Assembly: GCA_036259475.1 (NCBI GenBank) | Contig: DATABS010000013.1 | Coordinates: 51,430-115,429 of the forward strand | DNA length: 64,000 bases | DNA from: Acidimicrobiia bacterium | GTDB taxonomy: Bacteria > Actinomycetota > Acidimicrobiia > Spongiisociales > ZC4RG35 | Direction: 5' to 3' | Part shown: in pieces, positions 30,050 through 60,818 of the stretch | Numbering within the stretch: position 1 is the first letter of the stretch | Layout: each line of letters begins with the position of its first letter | Position numbers and translations under genes: made by a program | Notes under the pieces: model-generated | What the model was told of the DNA's origin: nothing | The model's database searches: none | Seen by the model: only the letters and a program-made list of their open reading frames with translations

Positions 30050-30071
30050 TGTGGGTGTGGTGTTGTAGGTT
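30050..30071 (+). promoter_or_regulatory. PafBC/RecA-NDp-type promoter (TGTGGG-N10-TAGGTT), leaderless
   Basis: Ends 6 nt before the DUF222 ATG. Confidence 0.55.
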
Positions 30072-30077
30072 GACGGT

Positions 30078-31245
30078 ATGGGCGAACATACGTTCGGATC
30101 CGGCTTGTCGGTCGAGGAGGAGCCTTCGACGCCGATGGAGAAGGTGGTCGATTTCGACGAGTTGACGGCCGGTAGCCGGCTGATGCGGCTGTGTGCGGTG
30201 GCCGAGTTGGACCGGTCCAAGGACTTCGAGTACGACGGTTACACCTCGACGTCGGGGTTTCTCATCCACCGCTGTGGCATGTCCGTCGGTGAAGCCACCC
30301 GGGAGGTGTTTGTGGCGAGGTCGCTGGATCAGATGGGCTATTCGGTCAAGTCGGCGTTCGCCGGGCACATCTCTCTGACCCAACTGGAACTGCTGGCCCA
30401 TGCCCGGGCCCGCCACCCCGACGAGTTCGCCGCCGACGAGGCCACCCTGGTCGATTCGGTGTCGGGTTTGACCGTGGCCCAAACCCGCCAAGCAGTGGAC
30501 TACTGGACCCAGGCCCACGACCAAGCCCCTGAATCAGAACAGGATGAGCCGGTGCCGTCGCGGGCTTACGGTGTCGAAGACGTGGCAGGGCCGGTGGCGT
30601 CTCGACGGCGACTTGGATCCCCTGGCCGGTGACCTGTTGGACACGGCGTTGGATGAGCTCATGTCAGAGATCGTCGACACCACACCCAAAGACGAACTGG
30701 AAACGGCGCCGGTGCGGCGAGCCCAAGCCCTCGAAGAGCTAGCCCGCCGCTTCTTGGGCTCCCCTGCTGGTCCCAGCGACCACGGCAACCGGCCCCACCT
30801 CACCGCCATCGTCGACTGGGACATCCTCACCGGAGCCACCCGCCACGGCGTGTCGGAACTCCTCGACGGGACCGTCATCGCCCCCCACACCGCCCAACGT
30901 CTCGCCTGCGACGCCAAAGTGTGCCGCCTCCTCACCGGACCCGCCGGAGAAATCTTGGACCTGGGACGCAGCGTCCGCACCGTCACCCCCGCCCAATGGC
31001 GCGCCCTGCGCCTCAGAGACCGCCACTGCCAATGGTGGGGCTGTTTCCGTCCCGCCGCCTGGTGCGACGCCCACCACATCCTCCACTGGACCCAAGGCGG
31101 CACCACCAACCTCACCAACCTGGTCCTCATCTGCCGCCACCACCACACCCTCATCCACCGCCACCAATGGAAACTCACCGGCACCCCCCGAAACCTCACC
31201 ATCACCCGACCCGACGGAACCATCCTCAACCACAGCCCGCCGTAG
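30078..31245 (+). pseudogene. DUF222-HNH endonuclease (13E12/Rv1128c family), frameshifted
   Basis: ORFs 30078-30632 and 30544-31245 join into one protein if one G at 30570/30571 is removed; AQRLACDA, RDRHC.WWGC, CDAHHI.HW..GG.T.L.NLVLIC..HH. Confidence 0.85.
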
Positions 31246-48446: not shown

Positions 48447-49574
48447 TCAGCGGCGAGAGGCGTAGTCGACGACGGTTTGTTCCAGCACCTCCATCGCCCG
48501 CGAGTGGCCTGCCAGGGCGTCAGTAGTCGTGTAGGCGAGCACCCGGGCGACCCACAGGCGGAAAACCAGACTGCGCCAGGCCGGCTCAGGCCGGTAGGCG
48601 TCGATGAGATGGACGAGCGTCTCATACCACCCCTCGCCGTCGAGGAAGGCGAACGTCGGCTCCCGCTGGTTGGCCAGAATCGGCCCGGCGATGTGGCGGG
48701 GGAATGTCCGGGCGGCTTCGGCTTCAGTCGCAGTCCAGCCCTCGGTCAGTAGACGGATGGTTGATTCGACGTCGTATCCGACCTTGTGGGCGATGGCGGG
48801 CGTGGCCGGCGCCTCCGGCTCCACCTCGTGCTCGAAAGGCGAGGGAGGCGGCATCTCTCCGACGGCCAGCGCAGCTTCGAAGCACTCGTAGACCATCGCC
48901 CGCAGCTCCTCGAGAGACCCGTAGAGGGCGTGTTGCTTCCCCCCGGGCACGAAATGCTCGTACATAGGGCCGGTTCCGGCGGTGGCATAGGTGATGACGG
49001 TGTCGATTCCCCAGTCCGATCGCGAGGTGACGAAGTCGTCATCGACGAGCTTCTCGACGACACCACGGGAGAGGAGCACCTCGCCGCCCAAGGGCTGGGG
49101 GATCTGCCAGAGCTGGGATCGGGAGTGGCCGATGGCGAACAGCGGCCGCGTCAGCATCCAGGTGATCATGGCGTCGGTAGAGGCGCGGGGGAAGTAGTGG
49201 CGAACCACCGGAAAACCGTCGTCGGCTGCCTTCTCGGCCCCTTCGATCCATGAGGCGTCGAAGTTGGTGATGTCGGCGTCGTAGAAGTGGAGCCGCTCGT
49301 TGTCGCCGGTGAGGAACCGGCGCATGGCGGTGTTCATCCCGTCGCCCTTGCCGGATCGGCGGTCGCCGATCCGATCCTGGAGGATCACCTCCACCGGAAC
49401 CTTCGTCGACGTCGATATACGGGAGGACTCGCCGGCGAGCAGTTCGAACAATCGGCCCGGTTCGGCCCCCACCGCCAGCACGCCCGTCACACGCGGATGA
49501 TGGGCGGCGGTCTCGAGGTTGGCGGTTGCCACATCGGCATCTTCTGACTTGAACGGGAATACGACCAGGCTCAT
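48447..49574 (-). CDS. mgs: Mannosylglycerate synthase (GT78, Rhodothermus-type)
   Basis: MSLVVFPFK, GKGDGMNTA, HFYDADIT, VRHYFPRASTDAMITWM, QPLGGE, SDWGIDT, GYDVE, RVL.YT match my recollection of R. marinus Mgs along the full length. Confidence 0.88.
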   Translation of the reverse strand: MSLVVFPFKSEDADVATANLETAAHHPRVTGVLAVGAEPGRLFELLAGESSRISTSTKVPVEVILQDRIGDRRSGKGDGMNTAMRRFLTGDNERLHFYDADITNFDASWIEGAEKAADDGFPVVRHYFPRASTDAMITWMLTRPLFAIGHSRSQLWQIPQPLGGEVLLSRGVVEKLVDDDFVTSRSDWGIDTVITYATAGTGPMYEHFVPGGKQHALYGSLEELRAMVYECFEAALAVGEMPPPSPFEHEVEPEAPATPAIAHKVGYDVESTIRLLTEGWTATEAEAARTFPRHIAGPILANQREPTFAFLDGEGWYETLVHLIDAYRPEPAWRSLVFRLWVARVLAYTTTDALAGHSRAMEVLEQTVVDYASRR

Positions 49575-49787
49575 CGCTGCCATCCTGCCAAGCGGGCGCC
49601 TCAACGTTGTAACCGACGTTTAGGCGACTCTGCATCGCAGCAGATCGTGAGAACCCTGTGCTCCGGTCATCCGTATCGGCGATCGACGTTCATGGGAGGT
49701 GATCCGGTAACGGTCGGACCAAGAAACGGCCGGAACCTCGAGACAGGCGCCCAGCCTTGCAATAGACATGAAAAAGTCGCCACGACA

Positions 49788-49814
49788 TGTCGAAATTCGA
49801 GGTTCCGGTTCGTC
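49788..49814 (+). promoter_or_regulatory. ECF42-type promoter TGTCGA-N17-CGTC
   Basis: TGTCGA 49788-49793, CGTC 49811-49814, upstream of the DGPF gene. Confidence 0.7.
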
Positions 49815-49852
49815 GAGAGGACGAAGGTATCCCCTAGAGAAAGGAGCCGAGG

Positions 49853-50224
49853 ATGCCTAGGTACGCGGCACTCATATACGGACCGGAGGAAAGCCCCGCC
49901 GAGGCCGACCCAGAGGTGTTGGCCCAGGTGATGGCCGAATACACCGAGTTCACCGACAAGGCGGGGGCGGCCGGAGTCATGAGCGGGGGAGAGGCTCTGG
50001 AAGACACGTCGACCGCCACGACGATCCATGTCGAAGGAGGCAAGGGTGGAGAAGTGATCCACTCCGATGGACCCTTCGCCGAGACGAAAGAGGTCCTCGG
50101 TGGGTTCTTCCTCCTCGATTGCAAGGACCTGGATGAAGCCCTGATGTGGGCGGCACAGATTCCCGGTGCGTGGCACGGTCACATCGAGGTTCGTCCGGTG
50201 ATCGACTTTTCCCAGGAGCAGTGA
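49853..50224 (+). CDS. YciI/DGPF-domain protein
   Basis: DGPFAETKEVLGGF, IEVRPV. Confidence 0.95.
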   Translation: MPRYAALIYGPEESPAEADPEVLAQVMAEYTEFTDKAGAAGVMSGGEALEDTSTATTIHVEGGKGGEVIHSDGPFAETKEVLGGFFLLDCKDLDEALMWAAQIPGAWHGHIEVRPVIDFSQEQ

Positions 50225-51426
50225 CCCGGACGGTCGAAGACACGCTGAGGATGGAGGGTGGCCGGGTGCTGGCCACCCTCATCCGTCTCACGGGCGACTT
50301 CGACCTGGCCGAGGACGCGCTGCAGGACGCGGTGGTCGAGGCGCTACAGCGGTGGGGACCGGATGGGGTGCCGTCGACGCCGGCCGCCTGGCTGACGACT
50401 GTCGCTCGCAACAAGGCCCTCGATCGGCTGCGACGTGAGTCGGTCCGCGGGCACAAGGAGGCCGATGCCATTCGGCTGCTCTCCGATCCGCCGCCGGTCT
50501 CGCCGATAGACGATCGCCTCCGGCTCATCTTCACTTGCTGTCACCCGGCCCTGTCGCCCGAGTCGCGTGTGGCGCTCACTCTGAGGACCGTCGGTGGGCT
50601 CACGACCACCGAACTCGCCCGCTGCTTCTTCGTCTCAGATGCCACCATGGGCCAGAGGCTGAGCCGGGCCAAAGCGAAGATCGCCCGGGCGAAAATTCCC
50701 TACCGGGTCCCCGACGACCACGAGCTACCCGACCGTCTCTCAGCCGTCCTGGCGACGGTCTATCTCGTCTTCACGGCCGGACATCACGCCCCGCACGGTG
50801 CCTTGGACTCACGTCGGGAACTCGCCGAGGAGGCGATTCGACTGGGGCGCTTGCTACTCGAGTTGTTGGGCGACCATCCCGAGGTGCCTGGTCTTCTGTC
50901 GCTGATGCTGGCCACTCATGCCCGCCGGCAAGCCCGCCTCGACGGCAACGGCGACATCGTTCTCCTGGCCGACCAGGATCGCGACCTGTGGGATCACCAC
51001 GCCATCCGGGAGGCGTCCGACATGTTGCAGACCGCCTTGAGGCGGCGACTGCCGGGCCCGTATCAGATACAGGCCGCCATCGCCTGCCTGCACGGAATCG
51101 CTCCGAGTGACGCGGCGACGGATTGGAAGCAGATCGTCGATCTCTACCGAATGCTGGAGAACACCACCCCGCTACCGGTCGTGGCGATCAACCGCGCGGT
51201 GGCCGAAGCGAAGGTCTTCGGGCCGGATGCCGGCCTGGCGGTGGTCAACGCCGTCACCGGTATGGAGCACTGGCACCTCTACTGGTCGACACGGGCCGAG
51301 TTGTTGCGGCAGTCGGGTCGCAACGAAGAGGCAGCGGCCGCCTACCGCAAGGCACTCGACTGCGACATGAACCAAAGCGACCGTCGCTTCCTCGAGCGGC
51401 GCCTCGGAGAGATCGACACGTCCTGA
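50221..51426 (+). CDS. ECF sigma factor with a C-terminal TPR-like extension (ECF42 group)
   Basis: DLAEDALQDA, DDRLRLIFTCCHPAL, GPYQIQAAIA; coupled to the DGPF gene; GTG 50221. Confidence 0.92.
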   Translation: MTRTVEDTLRMEGGRVLATLIRLTGDFDLAEDALQDAVVEALQRWGPDGVPSTPAAWLTTVARNKALDRLRRESVRGHKEADAIRLLSDPPPVSPIDDRLRLIFTCCHPALSPESRVALTLRTVGGLTTTELARCFFVSDATMGQRLSRAKAKIARAKIPYRVPDDHELPDRLSAVLATVYLVFTAGHHAPHGALDSRRELAEEAIRLGRLLLELLGDHPEVPGLLSLMLATHARRQARLDGNGDIVLLADQDRDLWDHHAIREASDMLQTALRRRLPGPYQIQAAIACLHGIAPSDAATDWKQIVDLYRMLENTTPLPVVAINRAVAEAKVFGPDAGLAVVNAVTGMEHWHLYWSTRAELLRQSGRNEEAAAAYRKALDCDMNQSDRRFLERRLGEIDTS

Positions 51427-51457: not shown

Positions 51458-51479
51458 TGTCCCAGCCGGCCGTTACTCT
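51458..51479 (+). promoter_or_regulatory. PafBC/RecA-NDp-type promoter (TGTCCC-N10-TACTCT) of herA
   Basis: Ends 8 nt before the ATG; no SD. Confidence 0.6.
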
Positions 51480-51487
51480 CGCCTGCG

Positions 51488-53185
51488 ATGAGTGACCCTC
51501 GCACCCCCAGCGAGAACATGGTCGGCCGCGTGATCGGAACCGACGACGCCACCCCTCTCGAGTTCTGGGTGGCGGTAGCGCCGGGGGAGTACCTCCAGCT
51601 AGACGACGTCGTGGCTTTGGAGCGGGTGCTGCCCACCGGGGAGTCCGTCCGGGTCTACGGAATGGTGTCCCAGGTACGGGCTCGTCATGAGGGCGCCAGA
51701 TTCGACTCCGATGTGTTCCTGATCTCGGACGGCGTCCTACCTGCCGAGGTGTCGGAGGCCGCCAAGGTCACTGCCACCCGGTTCGAGCCCGAGGTGTTCG
51801 TCCCGCCCCGGCCCGGCCAGCCCGTCGATCGGGCGCAGGGCGACGAGCGTGATCGAGCGCTGTTCTTCGATCGGATGGACAGGCGTCTCGCCATCGGACT
51901 GACGCGCGACAACGCGCCCCTGTTCGTCAACTTCGAGTTCCTCAATGGGGAGAGGGGCGCCCACGTCAACATCTCGGGTGTCTCGGGCGTGGCCACCAAG
52001 ACCACCTATGCCACGTTCCTACTCCACTCGCTCTTCAACGGAGCGGTCCTCGGGCCGGGGGCGGTCAATACCAAGGCTCTGATCTTCAACGTCAAGGGGG
52101 AGGATCTGCTTCACCTCGACCGGCCCAACGCGGTGCTCGAGGACGACCAACTGGTCCGCTATCGGGCGCTCGGGCTTCCGTCCGACCCTTTCAAGTCGGT
52201 CGGCTTCTACGCTCCGCCCAGGGTCGACTCCGAGACGTTGCGGGCCGACGTCTACTCCCGGTCCGACGTGACCAGCTTCTGTTGGTCGCTGGCAGAGTTC
52301 TGTCACGACGAGCTCTTGCCGTTCCTGTTCGCCGACGCCGAAGACGACCGGGCTCAGTACACCATGGTCGTCTACTCAGTGATGGCCCAGCTCAAACGGG
52401 CCACCCGCCGCGACGACGGCTCGGTCACGATCGAGGGAACCACGGTTCGCAGCTTTCGCCAGCTCGTCGAGCTCATCACCGACAAGGTACTGAGTGAGGA
52501 CGAGGGGCCCGTCTGGGCCGGTACGGCCATCGGACGGGGAACGGTCAACGCCTTCGTCCGCCGGCTCAACTCGGCGGTGCGCCACCTCGAGCGCCTCATC
52601 CGGGGCAACCTGTCGGATCCGGAGCGTCATCGGGTTCGGACCGACGACCATCGGGTCACGGTGGTCGACCTCCACAACCTCAACGACCGTGCCAAACGCT
52701 TCGTGGTGGGCGTGACGGTGCAGCGGGCGTTCGAGCAGAAAGAGCGACAGGGACGGCAGGGCGACGACGACCTGCTGTTCCTGGTCCTCGACGAGTTGAA
52801 CAAGTACGCCCCCCGGGACGGGTCGAGTCCGATCAAGGAGATCCTGCTCGACGTCGCCGAGCGAGGAAGGAGCCTGGGGATCATCCTCATCGGAGCCCAG
52901 CAGACCGCCTCGGAGGTGGAACGCCGGATCATCGCCAACTCGTCGATCCGGGTGGTGGGTCGCCTCGACTCGGCCGAGGCCTCGCGCGAGGAGTACGGGT
53001 TCCTCCCCTCTGTGCATCGTCAGCGGGCCACGATCATCAAACCGGGCACCATGCTGATAAGCCAGCCCGAGCTCCCGCTGCCGCTGGTGGCCGAGTTCCC
53101 CTTCCCCGCCTGGGCGACGCGTCCCTCGGAGGCGGTCGTGAGCGGTGGTGATGCCCCCGACGACCCCTTCCAGGGTCTCGGCTGA
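51488..53185 (+). CDS. herA: HerA-type ATPase/DNA translocase
   Basis: N-terminal HAS barrel, HVNISGVSGVATKT, LDELNKYAP, AERGRSLGIILIGAQQ. Confidence 0.88.
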   Translation: MSDPRTPSENMVGRVIGTDDATPLEFWVAVAPGEYLQLDDVVALERVLPTGESVRVYGMVSQVRARHEGARFDSDVFLISDGVLPAEVSEAAKVTATRFEPEVFVPPRPGQPVDRAQGDERDRALFFDRMDRRLAIGLTRDNAPLFVNFEFLNGERGAHVNISGVSGVATKTTYATFLLHSLFNGAVLGPGAVNTKALIFNVKGEDLLHLDRPNAVLEDDQLVRYRALGLPSDPFKSVGFYAPPRVDSETLRADVYSRSDVTSFCWSLAEFCHDELLPFLFADAEDDRAQYTMVVYSVMAQLKRATRRDDGSVTIEGTTVRSFRQLVELITDKVLSEDEGPVWAGTAIGRGTVNAFVRRLNSAVRHLERLIRGNLSDPERHRVRTDDHRVTVVDLHNLNDRAKRFVVGVTVQRAFEQKERQGRQGDDDLLFLVLDELNKYAPRDGSSPIKEILLDVAERGRSLGIILIGAQQTASEVERRIIANSSIRVVGRLDSAEASREEYGFLPSVHRQRATIIKPGTMLISQPELPLPLVAEFPFPAWATRPSEAVVSGGDAPDDPFQGLG

Positions 53186-53303
53186 CCCTCCAAGCGCCCT
53201 ACCCGACAGTTGGGTCATTCTGCGAAGCCTTTTACGGCGTAGCGGCGGAAAAATCTTCACAGGAAGGGTTGCCGGAGGCCCTTCCCGGCTAAACAACCGA
53301 ATC

Positions 53304-53325
53304 TGTCACACCCTTCACCTACTCT
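53304..53325 (+). promoter_or_regulatory. PafBC/RecA-NDp-type promoter (TGTCAC-N10-TACTCT) of sbcD
   Basis: Ends 7 nt before the GTG; leaderless geometry. Confidence 0.65.
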
Positions 53326-53332
53326 CGACGGC

Positions 53333-54466
53333 GTGAAGATCCTGCATACCGCCGACTGGCACCTCGGGCGCACGATCCGGGGCCGCAGCCGCCTCGACGA
53401 GCAGACTGACGTCCTCTCCGAAGTGGTCGAGATCGCCTCACACGAGGCGGTCGATCTGGTGTTGGTCGCCGGCGACCAGTTCGACACAGCCAGCCCGACT
53501 CCCGCCGCCGAACGATTGGCCTATCGCACCCTGCTCCAACTGGCCGAGGTGGCGCCGGTGGTGATGGTCGCCGGCAACCACGACCATCCTCGCCGCCTCG
53601 AAGCCGTCGCTCCGCTCCTCGAACTGGGTCGGGTGACGGTCGGTTCCTCGGTTGCCCGGCCCGATGATGGCGGGGTGGTGCGGCCGGTCGAGGGTGTCCG
53701 CGTCGCCTTGATCCCCTTCTTGTCCCAGAGGGGGATAGTCAGCGCCAGCGACCTGATGGCACTCGAGGCGGACCAGCAGGGCGCGAAGTTCGCCGACCGG
53801 ATGGATCAGATCATCTCCGCCTTGTGTGAAGGCGTGACGGCGGACGAGGTCAACATCGTCCTTGGCCATGTCATGGTCCACGGCGGCGATACCGGAGGAG
53901 GTGAGCGAGCCGCCCACACGGTTTTCGACTATTCCATTCCGGCCCAGGCCTTCCCACCGACCCTGTCGTATGTGGCTCTCGGTCATCTCCACCGCCACCA
54001 GAAGATGCCGGCGGCAGCTCCTGTCTGGTACTCCGGCGCTCCGCAACAGCTCGACTTCGGCGAAGTGGACGACAGCAAGGGTGTCCTGATCGTCGAAGCG
54101 GAGCCCGCCCTTCCTGCCCGCGTGGAGTTCCGACCGCTCACGTCGGGACGGAAGTTGCGCATCCTCCGCGGCACCCTCGAGCAGGTGGAGGCGGCGGCGG
54201 GCGATCTGAACGAGACCGACTATGTCCGCGTGGTGCTCGACGAGACGGCCCGGGCCGGATTGGCCGACACGGTCCGCCAGCTCGTTCCGCAAGCGGTCGA
54301 CGTTGTCCTCGATCCGGCCCGGCGCCATCCGCGCCAGCGGCGCAGCAGCCGGGCCGGGCGGACCCATCGAGAACTGTTCGTCGAGTACCTGCAAGAGGTC
54401 GACTTCCACGACCGGCGGGTGGTGGAGCTCTTCGACGAGCTGATGGAGGAGGCGCATGAGGCCTGA
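53333..54466 (+). CDS. sbcD: SbcD/Mre11 nuclease
   Basis: HTADWHLG, AGDQFD, AGNHD, ALGHLH, YSGAPQQLDFGE. Confidence 0.96.
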   Translation: MKILHTADWHLGRTIRGRSRLDEQTDVLSEVVEIASHEAVDLVLVAGDQFDTASPTPAAERLAYRTLLQLAEVAPVVMVAGNHDHPRRLEAVAPLLELGRVTVGSSVARPDDGGVVRPVEGVRVALIPFLSQRGIVSASDLMALEADQQGAKFADRMDQIISALCEGVTADEVNIVLGHVMVHGGDTGGGERAAHTVFDYSIPAQAFPPTLSYVALGHLHRHQKMPAAAPVWYSGAPQQLDFGEVDDSKGVLIVEAEPALPARVEFRPLTSGRKLRILRGTLEQVEAAAGDLNETDYVRVVLDETARAGLADTVRQLVPQAVDVVLDPARRHPRQRRSSRAGRTHRELFVEYLQEVDFHDRRVVELFDELMEEAHEA

Positions 54467-56822
54467 ACGGCTGGAGATGTCCGGCTTCGCTCCGTTCCGG
54501 GACCGCACAGAGGTCGACTTCCGAAACCTTGAATTGTTCGCCCTCACCGGTCCGACCGGGGCCGGCAAGAGCTCGGTGATCGACGCTCTCACCTTTGCCC
54601 TTTACGGCAGCGTCGCCCGATATGACCGACGAAGCGTCGGCCCCATCATCTCGCTCGGAGCCGCCGAGGCGCGTATTCGCTTCGACTTCACGGTCGAGGG
54701 CACGCCCTATACCGCTGCCCGTGTCGTGCGCCGCACGGCGGCCGGCGGGGCGACCACCGCCGAGGCCCGGCTGGAGAGCGACGGGCAGGTGCTCGCCTCC
54801 GGAGCCGCCGAGGTGACGGCGGCAGTCGAGCGACTGCTGGGGCTGGCCATCGATCACTTCACCCGGTCTGTCGTGCTTCCCCAGGGTGAGTTCGCCGCCT
54901 TCCTCCATGACACCCCCGCCGGCCAGCAGGACCTGGTCAAAGCTCTTCTCGACATGGGGCTCCTGGACACGGTCCGGAAGTCGGCCACCGAACGGGCCAA
55001 GACGGCGGAGGCCCTGGCGGACCAGGCCCGAACCCGCCGCGATGACCTGTCTGACGCCACCGAAGAGGCCGAAAAGGAGGCGGGAGCGCGCCTCGCCCGT
55101 CTGGAGCAGCTGGTCGAAGCCGTCACATCGGCTGAAGAGGCGATCGACGAGGCACAGGAGGCGGCCAAGGCGAAGGCCACCGAGGTCGAGACCCTGGAAA
55201 ACCAGGCACGGCTGGTGGCCGCGGTCCGGATCCCCGAGGGATTGACAGATCTGGCCGAGAAGCTCGCTTCCCTCAAGGCGGAGGTGGCCAAGTCTGAGAA
55301 GCAGGTCGCTCGGGCCGAGGAAGCGTTGGCGACTGTCACGACCGAGGCGGAGGCACTTCCCAGCGCCGAATCGCTCGAGACGGCCAGCAGCCTCATCATC
55401 GACTTGTCAGAGGCGCGCCAACGCCGGGACGCCATCGATCTCGAGCGGTTGGCGGCGGAACGTACCGATGCCGAAAAGCGATTGAGCGAACTGCAGAAAG
55501 TGTGTGACGCCGCCCGTAAGGCGCTCGAGGATGCGCGTTCCCGCCACGCCGCCCACGCCCTCACCAAGGGTCTCGTGGCGGGAGATCCGTGTCCCGTCTG
55601 CCGACAGCCCTTGCTCGAAGGGCCTGGGGATCCGCCGGCCGATCTCGGTGAGGGCGAAGCGGCCCTGGAGGCGGCGGAGAAGGCTCTCGACCGCGCCAGG
55701 ACCCTACACCGACAGGCCGAGGCGGCGGCGGCCGAAGGGCGCGTCGGCCACCAGGCGGCAAGCGCCACGGTGTCGCAGATCGAATCGCGCCTGTCGGGGC
55801 TGCCCCAGGGCGAGGCACTTTCCGAGGCGATCACCGCCCGCGCCGCCGTCGACCAGCGAATGACGGATGCCAGGGAGCAGCTGAAGGTTGCCCGCCAGGA
55901 TTTCGCCCTGGTGCGAGAAGCAGTGAGTGAGCTCGAGAACGCCGAGAAGCAGGCGTGGTATGACTTTTCCGAACTACGCGACAGAGTGGCCGCGCTCGGC
56001 CCGCCCGCAGCGGAGCGGGACGATCTGGGCGAGGCCTGGCGCAGGCTGCTGGGCTGGGCCCAAGCCACTCAGGTGAGCATCGCCGAGCAGCTGACGCAGG
56101 CGGTGGCGGCAGCCGAGGATGCCGCCGCCGCCGTGCAGAAGCAGACGGACGAGGTCGAGCAGCTGTTGGAGGACGCCCACGTCAGCGGCCAGGGACGGCC
56201 GACGACCCGACTCGCTGCCGCCGTCGCCATGGCCAACGCCGAGCACGACCGAATCCGGGAACGGCGAGGCGAGCGTGAGGCCGCCCAGACTCAGCTCAAC
56301 GAATTCACCGAGAAGGCGGCCGTCGCCACCGCTCTCGCCAACCACATGAAGGCGAATCGGTTCGAAGGGTGGCTGCTATCCGAGGCTCTCGCCGGTCTGG
56401 TGGACGGAGCCAACACCCTCCTTGCCGACCTCACCTCCGGCTGCTACTCGCTGGCTCTACAGGAGCGCTCGATCGAGGTGGTGGACCACCGCAATGCCGA
56501 CGAACACCGCTCGGTCAGGAGTCTTTCAGGAGGTGAGACCTTCCTCGTCTCCTTGGCGCTCGCCTTGTCGCTCGGCGAGCAGCTGACCAACCTGTCCGAG
56601 CGGGGCGGGGCGCGCCTGGAGGCGATATTCCTCGATGAGGGATTCGGCAGTCTCGACGCCGCCACCCTCGAGACGGTGTCGGTGGTCGTCACCGAGCTCG
56701 CCTCCCAAGGCCGCATCGTGGGCGTAGTGACCCACGTCAAGGAACTCGCCGAACAGATCCCGACTCGGTTCGAGGTCCGGACCGGCCCCGCCGGCAGCAC
56801 CGTCGAAAGAGTCGAGCAATGA
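54456..56822 (+). CDS. sbcC: SbcC/Rad50 SMC-family ATPase
   Basis: GPTGAGKSS, LPQGEF, CPVC zinc hook, LSGGETF, FLDEGFGSLD. Confidence 0.96.
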   Translation: MRPERLEMSGFAPFRDRTEVDFRNLELFALTGPTGAGKSSVIDALTFALYGSVARYDRRSVGPIISLGAAEARIRFDFTVEGTPYTAARVVRRTAAGGATTAEARLESDGQVLASGAAEVTAAVERLLGLAIDHFTRSVVLPQGEFAAFLHDTPAGQQDLVKALLDMGLLDTVRKSATERAKTAEALADQARTRRDDLSDATEEAEKEAGARLARLEQLVEAVTSAEEAIDEAQEAAKAKATEVETLENQARLVAAVRIPEGLTDLAEKLASLKAEVAKSEKQVARAEEALATVTTEAEALPSAESLETASSLIIDLSEARQRRDAIDLERLAAERTDAEKRLSELQKVCDAARKALEDARSRHAAHALTKGLVAGDPCPVCRQPLLEGPGDPPADLGEGEAALEAAEKALDRARTLHRQAEAAAAEGRVGHQAASATVSQIESRLSGLPQGEALSEAITARAAVDQRMTDAREQLKVARQDFALVREAVSELENAEKQAWYDFSELRDRVAALGPPAAERDDLGEAWRRLLGWAQATQVSIAEQLTQAVAAAEDAAAAVQKQTDEVEQLLEDAHVSGQGRPTTRLAAAVAMANAEHDRIRERRGEREAAQTQLNEFTEKAAVATALANHMKANRFEGWLLSEALAGLVDGANTLLADLTSGCYSLALQERSIEVVDHRNADEHRSVRSLSGGETFLVSLALALSLGEQLTNLSERGGARLEAIFLDEGFGSLDAATLETVSVVVTELASQGRIVGVVTHVKELAEQIPTRFEVRTGPAGSTVERVEQ

Positions 56823-57754
56823 CCACCCAGCCAACAGACATGCGGTACACGGTGGCCCAGTGGTCCCCGGAGTATGGAGTGCCGACGGAGCCGGAGCTCG
56901 AGGATGCCAGCGACCGCGTCGATGCGGGGATCGAGCTGCCGGTCGGGCAATGGCGCGAGATCATGCCCGACGTAGACCCGGCCGACGATGTCTTGTTCAT
57001 CGACGGTGTCCGCCGGGTCGACGCCAACCTATGGATCGAGCAACCGGGAGGTCGGCCCGCCCTGGGGCTCGCCGCCACCTACGCCGCCGGCGCAGTCCGC
57101 AGCAACGGCACGGCCCAGGTGGTGGAGGCGCGGGTCGAGCGGGGGCTGTTCACCTCCGCGGCGGGAGCGGCCGACCTCGTCACGACCTGCGGAACGTATT
57201 CCGTGCGGGCCACTTCCGGTGGTACGCCCGAAGAATTGTGGCTCGGCATCCAGCAGAGGATGGGTGAGCTGGAGGGGGTGGTCGCCGTGGCCCCGTCCGG
57301 AGCTGCTCTCATCATCGCCGACGGCCCCCTCTCCCATCATCGTCACGCCGAGGGGGCGGTGGGGTATGTCAAGCGGGAGCACGTCGAGTATCTGCCTGTC
57401 GACCTGTGGGAGGTGAAGTATGGGTTGGCGGTTGGGCGGCGGACACCGCTCTTCGTCACCACTACCTCATGGTCGCGATACTCGTGGTACGTCCGCCTGG
57501 CCAACGGGGCCGGACCGGCGGAGGGTCTGGTCCGCTGCGAGGTGAGCGCGGACACGGACATAGGCGCCGCCGTTCGTGTCGCCGACCGGGTGACTGCCAC
57601 CCTTCCCCGTTTCGCCTCCGCTCCCCACAAGGATCCGCGGGCTCCCGAGAACCTCTATCCGATCGCCGGGCTCGAACGGGAGCTTCGGCGCCGCCTGGGT
57701 GACCAGCAGCTCATGTACCGGGCGTTGCGGGTGGCCGCCTGGCGGGCAGCGTGA
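56819..57754 (+). CDS. nurA: NurA-family nuclease
   Basis: FIDGVRR, IIADGPL, VGYVK, DPRAPENLYPI..LE..LR..LG; coupled to sbcC. Confidence 0.8.
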   Translation: MTTQPTDMRYTVAQWSPEYGVPTEPELEDASDRVDAGIELPVGQWREIMPDVDPADDVLFIDGVRRVDANLWIEQPGGRPALGLAATYAAGAVRSNGTAQVVEARVERGLFTSAAGAADLVTTCGTYSVRATSGGTPEELWLGIQQRMGELEGVVAVAPSGAALIIADGPLSHHRHAEGAVGYVKREHVEYLPVDLWEVKYGLAVGRRTPLFVTTTSWSRYSWYVRLANGAGPAEGLVRCEVSADTDIGAAVRVADRVTATLPRFASAPHKDPRAPENLYPIAGLERELRRRLGDQQLMYRALRVAAWRAA

Positions 57755-58234
57755 TCAGCTGACCGTCGGGCGGAGGGCGGTTGGCACCGTCCCTCCGCCG
57801 TCGGGTGTGGGGACCGCAGGAGCTTCGCTCCGCGGTGTACCCGTTAATCCCCGATTCGGCGTCGGGATGTCAAACGAGGCGGTGAGGCGGGCGGCGTCAT
57901 CGAAGGTGAGCAGCTCTCTCACCTGACGGTGCTGCGCCGTTTCCCCGGTCATCGGCCCCGTTTCGTCGCGGACGACGGCCTCCGGCCTAGGAAGCGGCTC
58001 CGCCGTCTGCGGCGACGTGCCGGCGAGCCCGACCGCCACGACGAGGGCGGCACCGGCCAGAGCGGCGCTGGCCGTCAACGGCCGGATCAGGCTCGACCCA
58101 TCGAAGAACGCCAGGCGCCTCCTCGGTCGGCTCTTTCGGGGAGCTTGGCGGACCTGTCGAGCGAGATAGCCGTCCATCGCCTCCACCCACTGGGGGATGT
58201 CGGGTGAGGCGGGGCGCCGCATCTCAGATCGCAT
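57755..58234 (-). CDS. Single-TM protein, putative anti-sigma partner
   Basis: ATG 58234 overlaps the sigma stop region; basic N-terminus, one TM, short C-terminus. Confidence 0.6.
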   Translation of the reverse strand: MRSEMRRPASPDIPQWVEAMDGYLARQVRQAPRKSRPRRRLAFFDGSSLIRPLTASAALAGAALVVAVGLAGTSPQTAEPLPRPEAVVRDETGPMTGETAQHRQVRELLTFDDAARLTASFDIPTPNRGLTGTPRSEAPAVPTPDGGGTVPTALRPTVS

Positions 58235-58853
58235 ACTTCGCCTCCACCTCGATGAGGATTCCGTCGGTCTCGAGGGAGTCACGTACGGACCTCCGGGCCC
58301 GGGACAGTCTGAGGCGGGCCGCATTGGGCGTGATCCCCAGGGAGTACGCCGCCTCGCTGGGCGTGAGGCCGTCGTATGCAACGAGCTCGAGTACCTCTCG
58401 CTCCGACTTGGACAACCGTCGCAGGGCCTCTTCGAGGGCCGGGGCCTGGCGGGCAGCGTCGAGAGCCGCTGCCACGGCCTCCTCTTCGCTCTCGGTGAAG
58501 CGGGGAAAGACGTTGGAAGCCTTGGTCAACAGCCGACTCCGGCTGGCATTTCTGCGTCTCTGACGGGAAACGAGGCGGCGCGAAATGCCGAACAGCCAGG
58601 GAAGGGCGGTTTCTGTCTCCGGGCGGTAGCGTTCGGCTGCTTGAAGGGCGACGAGGAAGCAGTCGCCCACCAGGTCGGAGACGTCTTCTGGTGTGGCACA
58701 ACGTCGGATCGCATAAGTCGTCACCGCCTGCACGTGGCGGCGGAAGAAGATCGAGTACGCCTGGGCGTCGCCGCTCGCCGCTCCAGACAACAACTCCGCG
58801 TCCGTACGGTCCACCACGACAACTCTATGCGCGCCGCCCTTTCGGCATGTCAA
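58224..58853 (-). CDS. ECF RNA polymerase sigma factor
   Basis: DAELL...GDAQAY..FFRRH, ALPWLFGISR, LSKSEREVLEL, VRLSRAR-like end; true start may be a few codons downstream. Confidence 0.92.
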   Translation of the reverse strand: MTCRKGGAHRVVVVDRTDAELLSGAASGDAQAYSIFFRRHVQAVTTYAIRRCATPEDVSDLVGDCFLVALQAAERYRPETETALPWLFGISRRLVSRQRRRNASRSRLLTKASNVFPRFTESEEEAVAAALDAARQAPALEEALRRLSKSEREVLELVAYDGLTPSEAAYSLGITPNAARLRLSRARRSVRDSLETDGILIEVEAKYAI

Positions 58854-58868
58854 ACATGGGGATTGTTG

Positions 58869-58895
58869 GGAGGGGACCCGACGGGCGTCCCCTCC
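58869..58895 (-). terminator. Hairpin after the substrate-binding protein gene
   Basis: GGAGGGGAC / GTCCCCTCC 9 bp stem. Confidence 0.6.
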
Positions 58896-58907
58896 GCTCG
58901 CGCCGTC

Positions 58908-60818
58908 CTATCGGAGAACGAAGTCGGCGGCGTTGGCCAGAGGTCCGGCCGAGTTCGCATCGGGGGCGACGGCCCCCTTGGCAACCAGGTCGTTGCTGTA
59001 GGCGTAGAAATCGGGCTTCTGAGTCAGCGGAATCATGAACAGCCCCTGCTCGGGATCCTGGTCGAGCGTCGTCACCCAGGTGTCGAGCTCGTTGTAGCAA
59101 GCAGCCCTCTCGTCGTCGTCGAGGGTGGCGTTGCACTCCGCCGCGAACTGGTCGAACTCCTCGTTCCGGAACCCGTATGGATTACCAGTGGCGGGAACCG
59201 GCTCGCCGGCCTCATCCTCGACCACCCCGCCGGAGAGGTAGCTCGTGATCTGACCGCCCGGCCATGGTCCACCCACCCAGGCGAACTGCATTATGTCGAG
59301 GAGGTTGGGATCCCCGAGCTCGCCGCCGGAGGCCGATGCCAGCAGGTTGTCGGATGAGAACGGGCGCGTCGTGAAGTAATCAGAGCCCGGCACGTTGTCG
59401 ATCGTGATCTCGATCCCGGCCGCTTGCATCTGCGCCTGGATGATCTGCTGCTGCAGCTCGCGTAGGGCGTTGCCGCCGGTCGTGCCCACGCGGAGGGTCA
59501 GACGACCGAGCTCGGGATGGGCATAGATCCCATCCCCGCCTTCCGTATAGCCGGCCGATTCCAGGGCCGCCCGGGCCGATTCCACGTCGCCCATGCCGTA
59601 GCCCTTCTCGCCCTGGTGATCCTCATATACCTCCTGATTCGCCATCCACATGGTGTTGCCCAGACCGGCCGGGTCGAGGACGTCACCCAGGATCGGGGCG
59701 TACAGGGTCTCGACGACCTGGCCCTTGTCGATCGCAAAGGCAAGAGCTTCGCGGACCTCCGGTTGGGCGAGGTGAGGATTGAGGACGTTGAACCCCCAAT
59801 GCTCGTAGATCGGGCCGGGGATCGCCGCCACGGTGAAGCGGTCGTCCATGTTGATCTCCTCGAAGGCGAGCTGTGGCTGCGTGAAGACGATGTGCGCCTC
59901 GCCTGCCTTGAGCGCATTGACCTGGGCGTCGGTGTCGGCCACCCAGTTGATTCGGATCCCGCTGACACAGGCGGCACCCCGGTTCTGGGCGTCAGGACTG
60001 ACCGAGCCGTGATAATTGTCATTGCGGACGAGATGCATCGCGACCCCGAAGTCCCATGTGTCGAAGATCATCGGTCCTGAAGAGGGGAGCGGCTCGCCGT
60101 TCGCGCCGGTCCACGTGCGCTGCATTTCGTTCACCTCGGCGGCCCCGGCGCCCTCACCGAAGGCATGCGCCGGGAAGATGTTGGTGAAGATCGACTTCCA
60201 TCCGGCGAAGAACGGATCGTAAGTGATCTCGAACTCGGTGTCCGAGACGACGGTGAAGTCGCTGATCTGGTCGTAGCCCTGCCGGGAGGAGATCAGATAG
60301 GTCCCACCACCCGACTCGGGGTCGTAGCCCTCCATGACCACGTTGTAGGTGAACTCGACGTCGGCCGATGTCAACGGCTCGCCGTCTGACCACATCAGGT
60401 CGTCTCGCAGCCGGTGACTGATCGTGACGGAGCCGTTGTCATTGGCGACGACCTCGGCCTCCTCGGCGAGCAGTTCGGGATAGAAGTTCATGTCGGCGGT
60501 TGTCCCGTACAGGTCCTCCCACAGCACCTGCCAGACGTAGCTGGTGACCGCCAGATTGTTGTTCGGATCGTTGAGGTGCATGTCGGGTGGCTCCTGCTCG
60601 TGCGCCCAGACGAGCACCCCTTCCGAACCGTCGCAGTAGTTGTCTGTCTCCTCGGGTGCCATGGTCGTAGCCGAAGATGAGTCGGTGGCGGTGGTGTCGG
60701 TCGCCATGGTGTCGAGTGCCATCGAAGTGGCGGTCGCCCCGGTCGTGTCGGCCGGCTGTTCGGTTCCGCAGGCGACGAGCGCCAGCGCAATCACGGCCAG
60801 CAAGGTAAATCGCTTCAT
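58908..60818 (-). CDS. Family 5 (peptide/oligopeptide) ABC substrate-binding lipoprotein
   Basis: Lipobox LVAC, WSDGEPLTSADVEFT, SGPM, REALAFAIDK; ATG 60818 after GGAGG. Confidence 0.92.
   Translation of the reverse strand: MKRFTLLAVIALALVACGTEQPADTTGATATSMALDTMATDTTATDSSSATTMAPEETDNYCDGSEGVLVWAHEQEPPDMHLNDPNNNLAVTSYVWQVLWEDLYGTTADMNFYPELLAEEAEVVANDNGSVTISHRLRDDLMWSDGEPLTSADVEFTYNVVMEGYDPESGGGTYLISSRQGYDQISDFTVVSDTEFEITYDPFFAGWKSIFTNIFPAHAFGEGAGAAEVNEMQRTWTGANGEPLPSSGPMIFDTWDFGVAMHLVRNDNYHGSVSPDAQNRGAACVSGIRINWVADTDAQVNALKAGEAHIVFTQPQLAFEEINMDDRFTVAAIPGPIYEHWGFNVLNPHLAQPEVREALAFAIDKGQVVETLYAPILGDVLDPAGLGNTMWMANQEVYEDHQGEKGYGMGDVESARAALESAGYTEGGDGIYAHPELGRLTLRVGTTGGNALRELQQQIIQAQMQAAGIEITIDNVPGSDYFTTRPFSSDNLLASASGGELGDPNLLDIMQFAWVGGPWPGGQITSYLSGGVVEDEAGEPVPATGNPYGFRNEEFDQFAAECNATLDDDERAACYNELDTWVTTLDQDPEQGLFMIPLTQKPDFYAYSNDLVAKGAVAPDANSAGPLANAADFVLR

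What the first reader, a model, noticed from the sequence alone, without database searches (positions are those of the whole stretch)
51488..57754. Complete herA-mre11-rad50-nurA cluster in archaeal gene order
Seen: herA, sbcD, sbcC (with CPVC hook) and nurA are co-oriented, and the last three overlap. Established: herA-mre11-rad50-nurA is the double-strand-break end-resection operon of thermophilic archaea such as Sulfolobus; bacteria mostly use RecBCD or AddAB/AdnAB, with HerA-NurA patchy and little studied. Inference: an archaeal-style four-protein resection machine wired to a bacterial PafBC-type damage response, with separate promoters for herA and sbcD-sbcC-nurA.
Basis: partly seen in the sequence, partly recalled or inferred. 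Interest (0 to 1): 0.65.

Follow-up and report, generated by a model that had tools for sequence, protein, structure and literature searches.

The report
Bacterial herA-sbcD-sbcC-nurA DNA-break repair cluster
Four adjacent genes in this soil Acidimicrobiia bacterium encode bacterial versions of the HerA motor, SbcD/SbcC (Mre11/Rad50) and the NurA nuclease behind two DNA-damage-type promoters; the cluster is real, but it is a common bacterial module whose archaeal-looking gene order arose independently.

Summary
herA (51488-53185), sbcD (53333-54466), sbcC (54456-56822, CPVC hook) and nurA (56819-57754) are co-oriented, and the last three overlap by 11 and 4 nt. The last gene is a true NurA. 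It matches Deinococcus radiodurans NurA by sequence (E 8e-20) and by fold (pLDDT 89; Foldseek E 9e-18), and the catalytic D/K/R residues are invariant.

All four proteins are of bacterial type, not archaeal. HerA matches D. radiodurans HerA at E 4e-149, and SbcCD is closest to E. coli SbcCD.

The four genes are linked in 86 Actinomycetota loci and in two outgroup phyla. Gene order changed once: nurA-herA-sbcD-sbcC is ancestral, and the window's "archaeal" order marks one derived Acidimicrobiia clade.

herA and sbcD each carry TGTC-N12-TACTCT 7-8 nt before the start codon. In this genome the same motif precedes recA, radA, recC and other repair genes. It has the geometry of the mycobacterial PafBC (RecA-NDp) promoter, and pafBC is present. 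The genome also has recBC and an adnAB-like pair, and this is its only sbcCD.

Verdict: a damage-inducible break-end-processing module. It is a new member of a known kind and of moderate interest.

The parts
51458..51479 (+). herA promoter-like site, TGTCCCAG-N8-TACTCT (a -26-type element plus a -10 hexamer). The ATG follows 8 nt after the -10, so the mRNA is probably leaderless.
   Evidence: Sequence read. It is one of only 2 TGTC-N12-TACTCT sites in the window (0.06 expected). A motif lies before herA in 37/41 related loci.
51488..53185 (+). herA: bacterial-type HerA hexameric ATPase/translocase. Walker A is ISGVSGVATKT (K171/T172) and Walker B is LDE (D435/E436).
   Evidence: PDB 7f6d_B at E 4.4e-149, with the same unusual Walker A as DrHerA. 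Weak HAS-barrel Pfam hit. Motif positions.
53304..53325 (+). sbcD promoter-like site, TGTCACAC-N8-TACTCT. The GTG start follows 7 nt after the -10, so the mRNA is probably leaderless.
   Evidence: TGTCACAC(C) is this genome's own consensus for the motif, as before recA and radA. Strict motif present before sbcD in 47/67 related loci, plus CGTC variants.
53333..54466 (+). sbcD (Mre11 homologue): nuclease with all phosphoesterase motifs (DWH, GDQFD, GNHD, GH, GHLH).
   Evidence: TIGR00619 at E 1.4e-52. E. coli SbcD 6s6v_A at 1.3e-31. Motifs located.
54456..56822 (+). sbcC (Rad50 homologue): short 788-aa SMC-like ATPase with Walker A GPTGAGKSS, signature LSGGE, Walker B FLDEGF and H-loop VTH.
   Evidence: TIGR00618 at E 3.7e-68. 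6s6v_C at 1.3e-33. Motifs. It overlaps sbcD by 11 nt behind a GGAGGAGG Shine-Dalgarno.
55590..55601 (+). Zinc-hook CPVC of SbcC (aa 379-382).
   Evidence: Translation; position.
56819..57754 (+). nurA: bacterial-type NurA nuclease with an RNase H-like fold. D62, K185 and R274 correspond to D53, K201 and R309 of DrNurA.
   Evidence: 7f6d_H at E 7.7e-20 and 1zup at 9.5e-10. AF2 pLDDT 89. Foldseek 7f6d_G at E 9.3e-18. The residues are invariant in 58 sequences. Mutant data are in PMC9960219. ATGA overlap with sbcC.
57769..57799 (.). GC-rich inverted repeat just after the nurA stop. It may mark the transcript end; it has no T tract.
   Evidence: Read. Not picked up by the terminator scan. Not followed up.

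Best explanation

Inferred mechanism:
- SbcD/SbcC, the organism's only Mre11/Rad50 homologue, recognises DNA ends through zinc-hook-linked ATPase heads and cleans blocked or hairpin-capped ends.
- The HerA hexamer translocates on the duplex and feeds it into a NurA dimer, which degrades the 5' strand. This leaves 3' tails for RecA.

Expression is inferred to be DNA-damage-induced from two probably leaderless promoters, one for herA and one for sbcD-sbcC-nurA. Both belong to the PafBC-activated RecA-NDp class. The last three genes are translationally coupled.

Shown here: gene identities, folds, catalytic residues, conserved linkage, congruent phylogenies, and a conserved promoter motif shared with recA and other repair genes.

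Inferred only: induction, PafBC dependence, physical or functional cooperation of the four proteins, and the direction of resection.
For: Identities and intact active sites. Biochemistry of the orthologous D. radiodurans complex is in PMC9960219.

Linkage: sbcD-sbcC-nurA is contiguous in every informative locus of 80 Acidimicrobiia species, usually with herA directly upstream. All four genes lie within 9 kb in 34 of 38 sampled Actinomycetota contexts. They are also linked in Dehalococcoidia and Coprothermobacterota.

Co-evolution: pairwise-distance correlations are r = 0.87-0.95. The NurA and SbcD trees split the two gene orders on one branch with 100/99-100 support; the HerA tree agrees in that the window's order forms one nested clade.

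Regulon:
- TGTC-N12-TANNNT occurs only 40 times in 3.04 Mb, and 18 of those sites have an ORF start 6-9 nt downstream.
- The genes behind these sites include recA, radA, recC, a recQ-like helicase, a UvrD+HRDC helicase, a PD-(D/E)XK nuclease ahead of adnAB, a DUF222 gene and an ECF sigma factor.
- TGTC is the most enriched 4-mer (6.5x) among 717 leaderless-like starts, and only at N12 spacing (16 sites against 0-4 at other offsets).
- The geometry equals the mycobacterial consensus tTGTCRgtg-8nt-TAnnnT (PMC5656591).
- The genome has a dop-prcB-prcA-pafA locus followed by two WYL-domain genes.
- The motif is conserved before herA (37/41) and sbcD (47/67) in relatives. In the other gene order it lies before the first gene, nurA (20/23), rarely before herA (3/23) and never before sbcD (0/23).

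Housekeeping character: there is no second sbcCD in a 97%-complete genome, and synteny with the mannosylglycerate synthase gene is conserved.
Against: - There are no expression data; no RNA run holds this stretch.
- PafBC binding is inferred from motif geometry alone. The bases after TGTC differ from the mycobacterial RGTG (herA CCAG, sbcD ACAC).
- Nothing here shows that HerA-NurA and SbcCD interact or act on the same substrate.
- In D. radiodurans and Thermus the nurA-herA pair is not linked to sbcCD, and its in vivo role is still debated.
- A 2026 review (PMC13748450) assigns bacterial NurA-HerA mainly to defence against foreign DNA.
- RecBC(D) and AdnAB are also present, so a resection role would be redundant.
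Confidence: 0.72

Rival explanations
1. The genes are co-regulated neighbours but not one machine. SbcCD does its usual job of cleaving hairpins, palindromes and protein-blocked ends. HerA-NurA does something separate, such as fork processing or work with RecJ as proposed in Deinococcus. The linkage would reflect only shared damage-inducible control.
For: The cluster is split into two transcription units here. herA is sometimes 0.5-3 kb away or further. Deinococcus and Thermus keep nurA-herA apart from sbcCD (PMC5448004). DrHerA has been reported to interact with RecJ (PMC4663267, title and abstract).
Against: The four genes stay linked through at least three different gene orders and in three phyla. 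In many loci they overlap or abut as a single operon. Their trees are congruent. That is more than co-regulation usually maintains.
Confidence: 0.18
2. It is a defence system that degrades incoming phage or plasmid DNA, like HerA-based systems (SIR2-HerA, TdpAB) or Lamassu/MADS-type SMC ATPases.
For: Weak PADLOC hits: HerA to mad8 (E 4e-12) and HerA models, SbcC to LmuB (3e-25) and mad3. The NurA model also resembles the nuclease of TdpAB (8wfd_G, E 3e-4). Review PMC13748450 claims a defence role for bacterial NurA-HerA.
Against: The PADLOC hits cover generic ATPase regions only, and no effector or sensor partner gene is present. The cluster is a single-copy core locus with conserved flanks across a whole class, not a variable island. 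It holds the only sbcCD in the genome. Its promoters belong to the recA/radA/recC regulon.
Confidence: 0.06
3. It is an archaeal operon acquired by horizontal transfer, which would explain the archaeal gene order.
For: The order herA-mre11-rad50-nurA is that of the Sulfolobus operon (PMC4351679).
Against: No archaeal HerA or NurA structure is hit even at E 10, while the bacterial ones score 4e-149 and 8e-20. SbcD and SbcC score far better against bacterial than archaeal models and structures. The window's order is one clade nested among lineages with nurA-herA-sbcD-sbcC, and in outgroup phyla nurA lies next to herA.
Confidence: 0.02

Closest known systems
Deinococcus radiodurans NurA-HerA complex (PDB 7F6D, 7WRW, 7WRX; PMC9960219)
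   Same: HerA and NurA are orthologues. HerA matches at E 4e-149 and has the identical atypical Walker A (ISG-SGVATKT), Walker B and C-terminal motifs. NurA has the same fold and the D53/K201/R309 equivalents. In vitro the Deinococcus complex is an ATP-driven translocase that feeds duplex DNA to a dimeric nuclease.
   Different: In Deinococcus nurA-herA is a two-gene operon away from sbcCD. Here sbcD-sbcC lies between herA and nurA, nurA is translationally coupled to sbcC, and the promoters are of the actinobacterial PafBC type.
nurA-hepA(herA)-sbcD-sbcC cluster of Oceanithermus profundus (noted in Blesa et al. 2017, PMC5448004)
   Same: Bacterial-type NurA and HerA are linked to bacterial SbcD/SbcC. 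The same linkage and order occur in 23 of the Actinomycetota loci sampled here and in a Dehalococcoidia contig.
   Different: In the window's clade nurA sits after sbcC and there are two promoters instead of one. The Oceanithermus case was reported as a single-genus observation.
herA-mre11-rad50-nurA operon of thermophilic archaea (Sulfolobus, Pyrococcus; Constantinesco et al. 2004; PMC4351679)
   Same: Same four functions, same gene order, and damage-linked expression is proposed for both. It is the likely functional analogue.
   Different: The proteins here are bacterial-type. The order is convergent. The host is a mesophilic soil actinobacterium that also has RecBC(D) and AdnAB. The archaeal genes are essential, whereas essentiality here is unknown.
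Mycobacterial PafBC / RecA-NDp DNA-damage regulon (PMC5656591, PMC6789036, PMC8223512)
   Same: Same motif geometry (TGTC, 12 nt, TANNNT) directly upstream of repair genes. pafBC follows pafA in the proteasome locus. Regulon content overlaps (recA, radA, the adnAB region, a uvrD-like helicase, DUF222/REP13E12-like genes, an ECF sigma factor).
   Different: herA, nurA and sbcCD were not found mentioned as PafBC targets in the papers searched. The local consensus is TGTCACAC rather than TGTCRGTG. Most sites here sit 6-9 nt from the start codon.

Membership tests
Bacterial HerA-NurA (Deinococcus-Thermus type) | HerA with an N-terminal HAS barrel and a RecA-like ATPase domain, with Walker A lysine and Walker B D-E | tested here: met
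   Near full-length alignment to 7f6d_B at E 4.4e-149. K171/T172 and D435/E436 align with DrHerA K175/T176 and D487/E488. HAS-barrel Pfam hit at E 3.5e-4, below the cut-off.
Bacterial HerA-NurA (Deinococcus-Thermus type) | NurA with an RNase H-like fold and the catalytic Asp plus Lys/Arg that are required in DrNurA | tested here: met
   AF2 model with pLDDT 89. Foldseek finds 7f6d_G at E 9.3e-18 (TM 0.71) and 1zup at E 4.5e-16. D62/K185/R274 are invariant in 58 homologues and align with D53/K201/R309.
Bacterial HerA-NurA (Deinococcus-Thermus type) | HerA6-NurA2 complex with ATP-dependent nuclease activity on DNA ends | not testable with these tools
   Needs purified proteins. Indirect support only: congruent trees and r = 0.94 between HerA and NurA distances.
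Archaeal herA-mre11-rad50-nurA operon | Gene order herA, mre11, rad50, nurA on one strand | tested here: met
   The order in Sulfolobus is as given in PMC4351679.
Archaeal herA-mre11-rad50-nurA operon | Common descent with the archaeal genes (archaeal-type HerA, NurA, Mre11, Rad50) | tested here: not met
   No archaeal HerA or NurA chain was found at E <= 10. Archaeal Mre11/Rad50 models and structures score 15-35 orders of magnitude worse than bacterial ones. The gene order is derived within bacteria.
SbcCD / Mre11-Rad50 | Mre11 phosphoesterase motifs I-V; Rad50 Walker A/B, signature motif, H-loop and CxxC zinc hook in a coiled coil | tested here: met
   DWHLG, GDQFD, GNHD, GH and GHLH in SbcD. 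GPTGAGKSS, LSGGE, FLDEGF, VTH and CPVC (aa 379-382) in SbcC. Family scores.
PafBC / RecA-NDp regulon | pafB and pafC (WYL-domain pair) present in the genome next to pafA | tested here: met
   Two adjacent WYL-domain ORFs lie directly after pafA in a dop-prcB-prcA-pafA locus on contig C107. No NCBIfam model named them, so the assignment rests on domain and position.
PafBC / RecA-NDp regulon | Promoter motif tTGTCRgtg-8nt-TAnnnT upstream of the gene | tested here: inconclusive
   The core TGTC, the spacing and TANNNT are present before herA and sbcD and are conserved. They are shared with recA, radA, recC and others. The four bases after TGTC are CCAG and ACAC, not RGTG (consensus from PMC5656591).
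PafBC / RecA-NDp regulon | PafBC-dependent induction by DNA damage | not testable with these tools
   No RNA data for this organism. Needs RNA-seq with and without mitomycin C, and a pafBC mutant in a relative.
HerA- or SMC-based anti-phage systems (SIR2-HerA, TdpAB, Lamassu, MADS) | Dedicated effector or sensor partner genes, location in a variable defence island, and a full-length match to the system's models | tested here: not met
   Only partial ATPase-region hits in PADLOC. The neighbours are sbcD, sbcC and nurA. The locus is conserved class-wide with stable flanks.

The most novel reading that the evidence does not exclude
HerA, SbcD, SbcC and NurA form one physically coupled resection machine, which would be a third bacterial end-resection route beside RecBCD and AdnAB. 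In Actinomycetota it would belong to the PafBC regulon. One Acidimicrobiia clade independently moved nurA behind sbcC, with translational coupling, and so reproduced the archaeal order. That would point to selection for co-assembly of NurA with Rad50/SbcC, an interaction not yet described in either domain.
Probability: 0.2. Interest if true: 0.6.

Novelty: new member of a known kind. Interest (0 to 1): 0.35.

Why it matters
Bacterial NurA-HerA has been studied only in Deinococcus and Thermus, where it is separate from SbcCD. A 2026 review states that bacterial nurA has no stable synteny with herA, mre11 or rad50 (PMC13748450).

These data show the opposite for a whole actinobacterial class and for contigs from two other phyla. 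The four genes are inherited together, and they sit behind the same damage-type promoter as recA.

This gives a bacterial setting in which to test whether Mre11-Rad50 and HerA-NurA truly cooperate, a question still open in archaea. A probable cultured relative, Ilumatobacter, carries the cluster. It would also add herA, nurA and sbcCD to the candidate PafBC regulon.

It does not reveal a new kind of system.

Tried and rejected
- Pfam and NCBIfam did not name the last gene or HerA above their cut-offs. PDB sequence search and a fold search settled both.
- The exact mycobacterial motif TGTCRGTG-N8-TANNNT does not hit the two promoters, even with one mismatch. The relaxed core TGTC-N12-TANNNT does.
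- LexA/SOS box (GAAC-N4-GTTC): none at the two promoters, and counts are at chance level.
- The generic sigma-70 promoter and terminator scan gave nothing useful.
- The ECF sigma gene directly upstream (50146-51426) was considered as a dedicated regulator. It is absent from all related loci, so it was rejected.
- RNA evidence for leaderless starts: no RNA runs are available, only soil DNA runs.
- The search for homologous proteins with HerA returned only close Acidimicrobiia relatives. The representative search plus cluster look-up was needed to reach other phyla.
- A second sbcCD, or a second herA of this type, in the genome: none.
- Archaeal origin and a defence-island reading were both considered and rejected (see rival explanations).
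- The kinship labels of the genome search ('same class' against 'same phylum') did not match protein similarity, so I did not use them for taxonomy.
Full report
**1. The observation**

The region holds four co-oriented ORFs at exactly the stated coordinates:
- 51488-53185 (565 aa)
- 53333-54466 (377 aa)
- 54456-56822 (788 aa)
- 56819-57754 (311 aa)

sbcD and sbcC overlap by 11 nt, and a GGAGGAGG Shine-Dalgarno lies just before the sbcC ATG. sbcC and nurA overlap as ATGA. A 147-nt gap separates herA from sbcD.

**2. Gene identities**

Library HMMs name only the middle two genes.
- SbcD matches TIGR00619 at E 1.4e-52 and Metallophos.
- SbcC matches TIGR00618 at E 3.7e-68, AAA_23 and SbcC_Walker_B.
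- HerA gets only a sub-threshold HAS-barrel hit.
- The last protein gets nothing; NurA PF09376 scores E 0.11.

Against solved structures the picture is clear.
- HerA aligns over almost its whole length with D. radiodurans HerA (7f6d_B, E 4.4e-149). It shares that protein's unusual Walker A (ISG-SGVATKT), the Walker B and the C-terminal GAQQTASEVERR block.
- The last protein matches D. radiodurans NurA (7f6d_H, E 7.7e-20) and Thermotoga TM1739 (E 9.5e-10).

I built a 58-sequence alignment and an AlphaFold model (pLDDT 89, pTM 0.87). Foldseek ranks DrNurA first (E 9.3e-18, TM 0.71/0.66), then TM1739, then the nuclease of TdpAB.

The residues whose mutation abolishes DrNurA activity are D53, K201 and R309 (PMC9960219). 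They align with D62, K185 and R274, which are invariant in the alignment.

SbcD has all five phosphoesterase motifs. SbcC has Walker A and B, the signature motif, the H-loop and the CPVC hook at aa 379-382. All four proteins look catalytically competent.

**3. Bacterial, not archaeal**

No archaeal HerA or NurA structure appears even at E 10. SbcD and SbcC are closest to E. coli SbcCD (6s6v; E 1.3e-31 and 1.3e-33), then Thermotoga. Archaeal Mre11 and Rad50 match only over the N-terminal motifs, and the NCBIfam scores say the same.

The HerA family also occurs in Deinococcus (52% identity), Coprothermobacterota (47%), Dehalococcoidia (41%) and candidate division WS2 (33%).

**4. Host and genome background**

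Relatives found with NurA are nearly all Acidimicrobiia MAGs. The window's own assembly is 3.04 Mb, 66% G+C and 97% complete.

The genome also holds:
- recC plus the start of recB at a contig end;
- an adjacent pair of UvrD-like helicases with C-terminal PD-(D/E)XK domains, which looks like adnAB;
- an intein-containing recA.

I did not look for recD. There is no second sbcCD and no second herA of this type. The cluster is therefore an addition to the usual actinobacterial resection enzymes, and it contains the only Mre11/Rad50 homologue.

**5. Conservation and gene order**

In 80 species-level loci found with NurA, sbcD-sbcC-nurA is contiguous wherever the contig allows. herA is usually directly upstream, sometimes 0.5-3 kb away, and once inverted.

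In an even sample of 401 Actinomycetota genomes, 97 have a HerA hit at E <= 1e-20. I fetched 40 contexts; 38 hold this HerA type, and the other two hold a distant 27-28% HerA. All four genes lie within 9 kb in 34 of the 38.

Two orders exist among the 86 loci with all four genes:
- the window's herA-sbcD-sbcC-nurA, in 62 loci;
- nurA-herA-sbcD-sbcC, in 23 loci;
- one rearranged locus.

The second order includes a 4,830,181-bp single-contig genome. From memory of that length, I take it to be Ilumatobacter coccineus.

The NurA and SbcD trees separate the two orders on a single branch (support 100/99 and 100/100). In the HerA tree the window's order forms one clade. The other order is paraphyletic around it, and DrHerA falls among these lineages.

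Outside the phylum, a Dehalococcoidia contig has nurA-herA-sbcD-sbcC and a Coprothermobacterota contig has sbcD-sbcC-nurA-herA. Oceanithermus has nurA-hepA-sbcD-sbcC and Deinococcus has nurA-herA (PMC5448004).

In every outgroup nurA lies next to herA. The "archaeal" order is therefore a single derived rearrangement, convergent with Sulfolobus (order in PMC4351679).

Pairwise distances of the four proteins correlate at r = 0.87-0.95. That fits inheritance as a unit, although shared species history alone could also give it.

**6. Promoters**

herA and sbcD are each preceded by ATCTGTC-N12-TACTCT, ending 8 and 7 nt before the start codon. These are the only two such sites in the window, against 0.06 expected.

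Genome-wide results:
- TGTC-N12-TANNNT occurs 40 times.
- In 18 cases an ORF of at least 80 aa starts 6-9 nt after the -10.
- The annotated genes behind such sites (recA's called start lies 28 nt after the -10; the rest start 6-9 nt after it) are recA, radA, recC, a RecQ-like helicase, a UvrD+HRDC helicase, a PD-(D/E)XK nuclease upstream of the adnAB-like pair, a DUF222 protein, a PHP phosphoesterase, an ECF sigma factor, a Lon/PDZ protease and comF.
- Among 717 leaderless-like starts, TGTC is the most enriched 4-mer at this position (6.5x). It peaks only at N12 spacing, with 16 sites against 0-4 at other offsets.

The geometry equals the mycobacterial RecA-NDp consensus tTGTCRgtg-8nt-TAnnnT (PMC5656591), which PafBC uses (PMC6789036). 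The genome has dop-prcB-prcA-pafA followed by two WYL-domain genes.

The motif is conserved in relatives before herA (37/41) and sbcD (47/67, plus CGTC variants). In six loci herA abuts sbcD with no second promoter. In the nurA-first order, a motif relaxed to allow C in the first position lies before nurA (20/23), rarely before herA (3/23) and never before sbcD (0/23).

So the ancestral form appears to be one damage-type operon, and the window's clade has two units. No SOS box lies at either promoter. No RNA data exist to confirm the start sites.

**7. Interpretation**

The best-supported reading is a DNA-damage-inducible end-processing module. SbcCD opens or cleans ends, and HerA-NurA resects them. 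Expression comes from PafBC-type, probably leaderless promoters.

Induction, PafBC dependence and cooperation among the four proteins are inferences.

A defence role is unlikely. The locus is a core, single-copy, syntenic locus. The PADLOC matches cover only ATPase regions, and its promoters are those of recA and radA.

**8. Novelty**

Bacterial NurA-HerA is known, and its linkage to sbcDC was noted for Oceanithermus in 2017. I found no paper describing the cluster in Actinomycetota or its PafBC-type promoters. A 2026 review denies stable synteny in bacteria.

Earlier notes of this scan report the same operon in many genomes. They are leads only, but they agree with what I found independently.

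I therefore file it as a new member of a known kind, of moderate interest.

Noticed in passing
window 30050-31245: A frameshifted DUF222/HNH (REP13E12-like) gene runs through ORFs 30078-30632 and 30544-31245. It is preceded by TGTGGGTG-N8-TAGGTT 6 nt before its ATG, and a perfect GAACATACGTTC (SOS-box-like) sits at 30084-30095, just inside the ORF. A near-identical copy with TGTCGGTG lies at the end of contig C26. It may be under dual PafBC/LexA control, as described for some mycobacterial genes.
   Followed up: partly
window 48447-51426: The mannosylglycerate synthase gene (48447-49604, minus strand) lies directly upstream of herA in about 30 related loci. In the window an ECF sigma factor gene with DUF6596 and TPR (50146-51426) sits between them and is absent from the relatives, so it looks like a local insertion.
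   Followed up: partly
genome contig C35:19874-22027 (locus L094): recA is 717 aa and carries an intein (NF007072, intein N- and C-terminal models). It is preceded by TTCTTGTCACAC-N8-TACGTT.
   Followed up: no
HerA tree: D. radiodurans HerA falls inside the actinobacterial HerA diversity. It is sister to the window's clade plus three nurA-first loci (SH-aLRT 99, long branch). This hints at transfer between Deinococcota and Actinomycetota rather than an archaeal source.
   Followed up: no
L257:12598-13776 and L259:1611-8746: The Dehalococcoidia cluster has an extra 392-aa SMC_N/AAA_23 ATPase gene right after sbcC. The Coprothermobacterota cluster has a third order, sbcD-sbcC-(344-aa NurA-position gene)-herA.
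   Followed up: no
L036, L040, L251: Contigs labelled Boseongicola (Pseudomonadota), Acidobacteria and Gemmatimonadales carry NurA or HerA genes about 62-77% identical to the Acidimicrobiia/Actinomycetota queries, and L036 nests among Acidimicrobiia sequences in the HerA tree. They are probably mis-binned or mislabelled MAG contigs.
   Followed up: no
window 58197-59357: A 386-aa ORF with no Pfam or NCBIfam match lies downstream of nurA. Homologues (33-49% identity) occupy the same position in about a dozen related loci. Its function is unknown, and no link to the cluster was established.
   Followed up: partly
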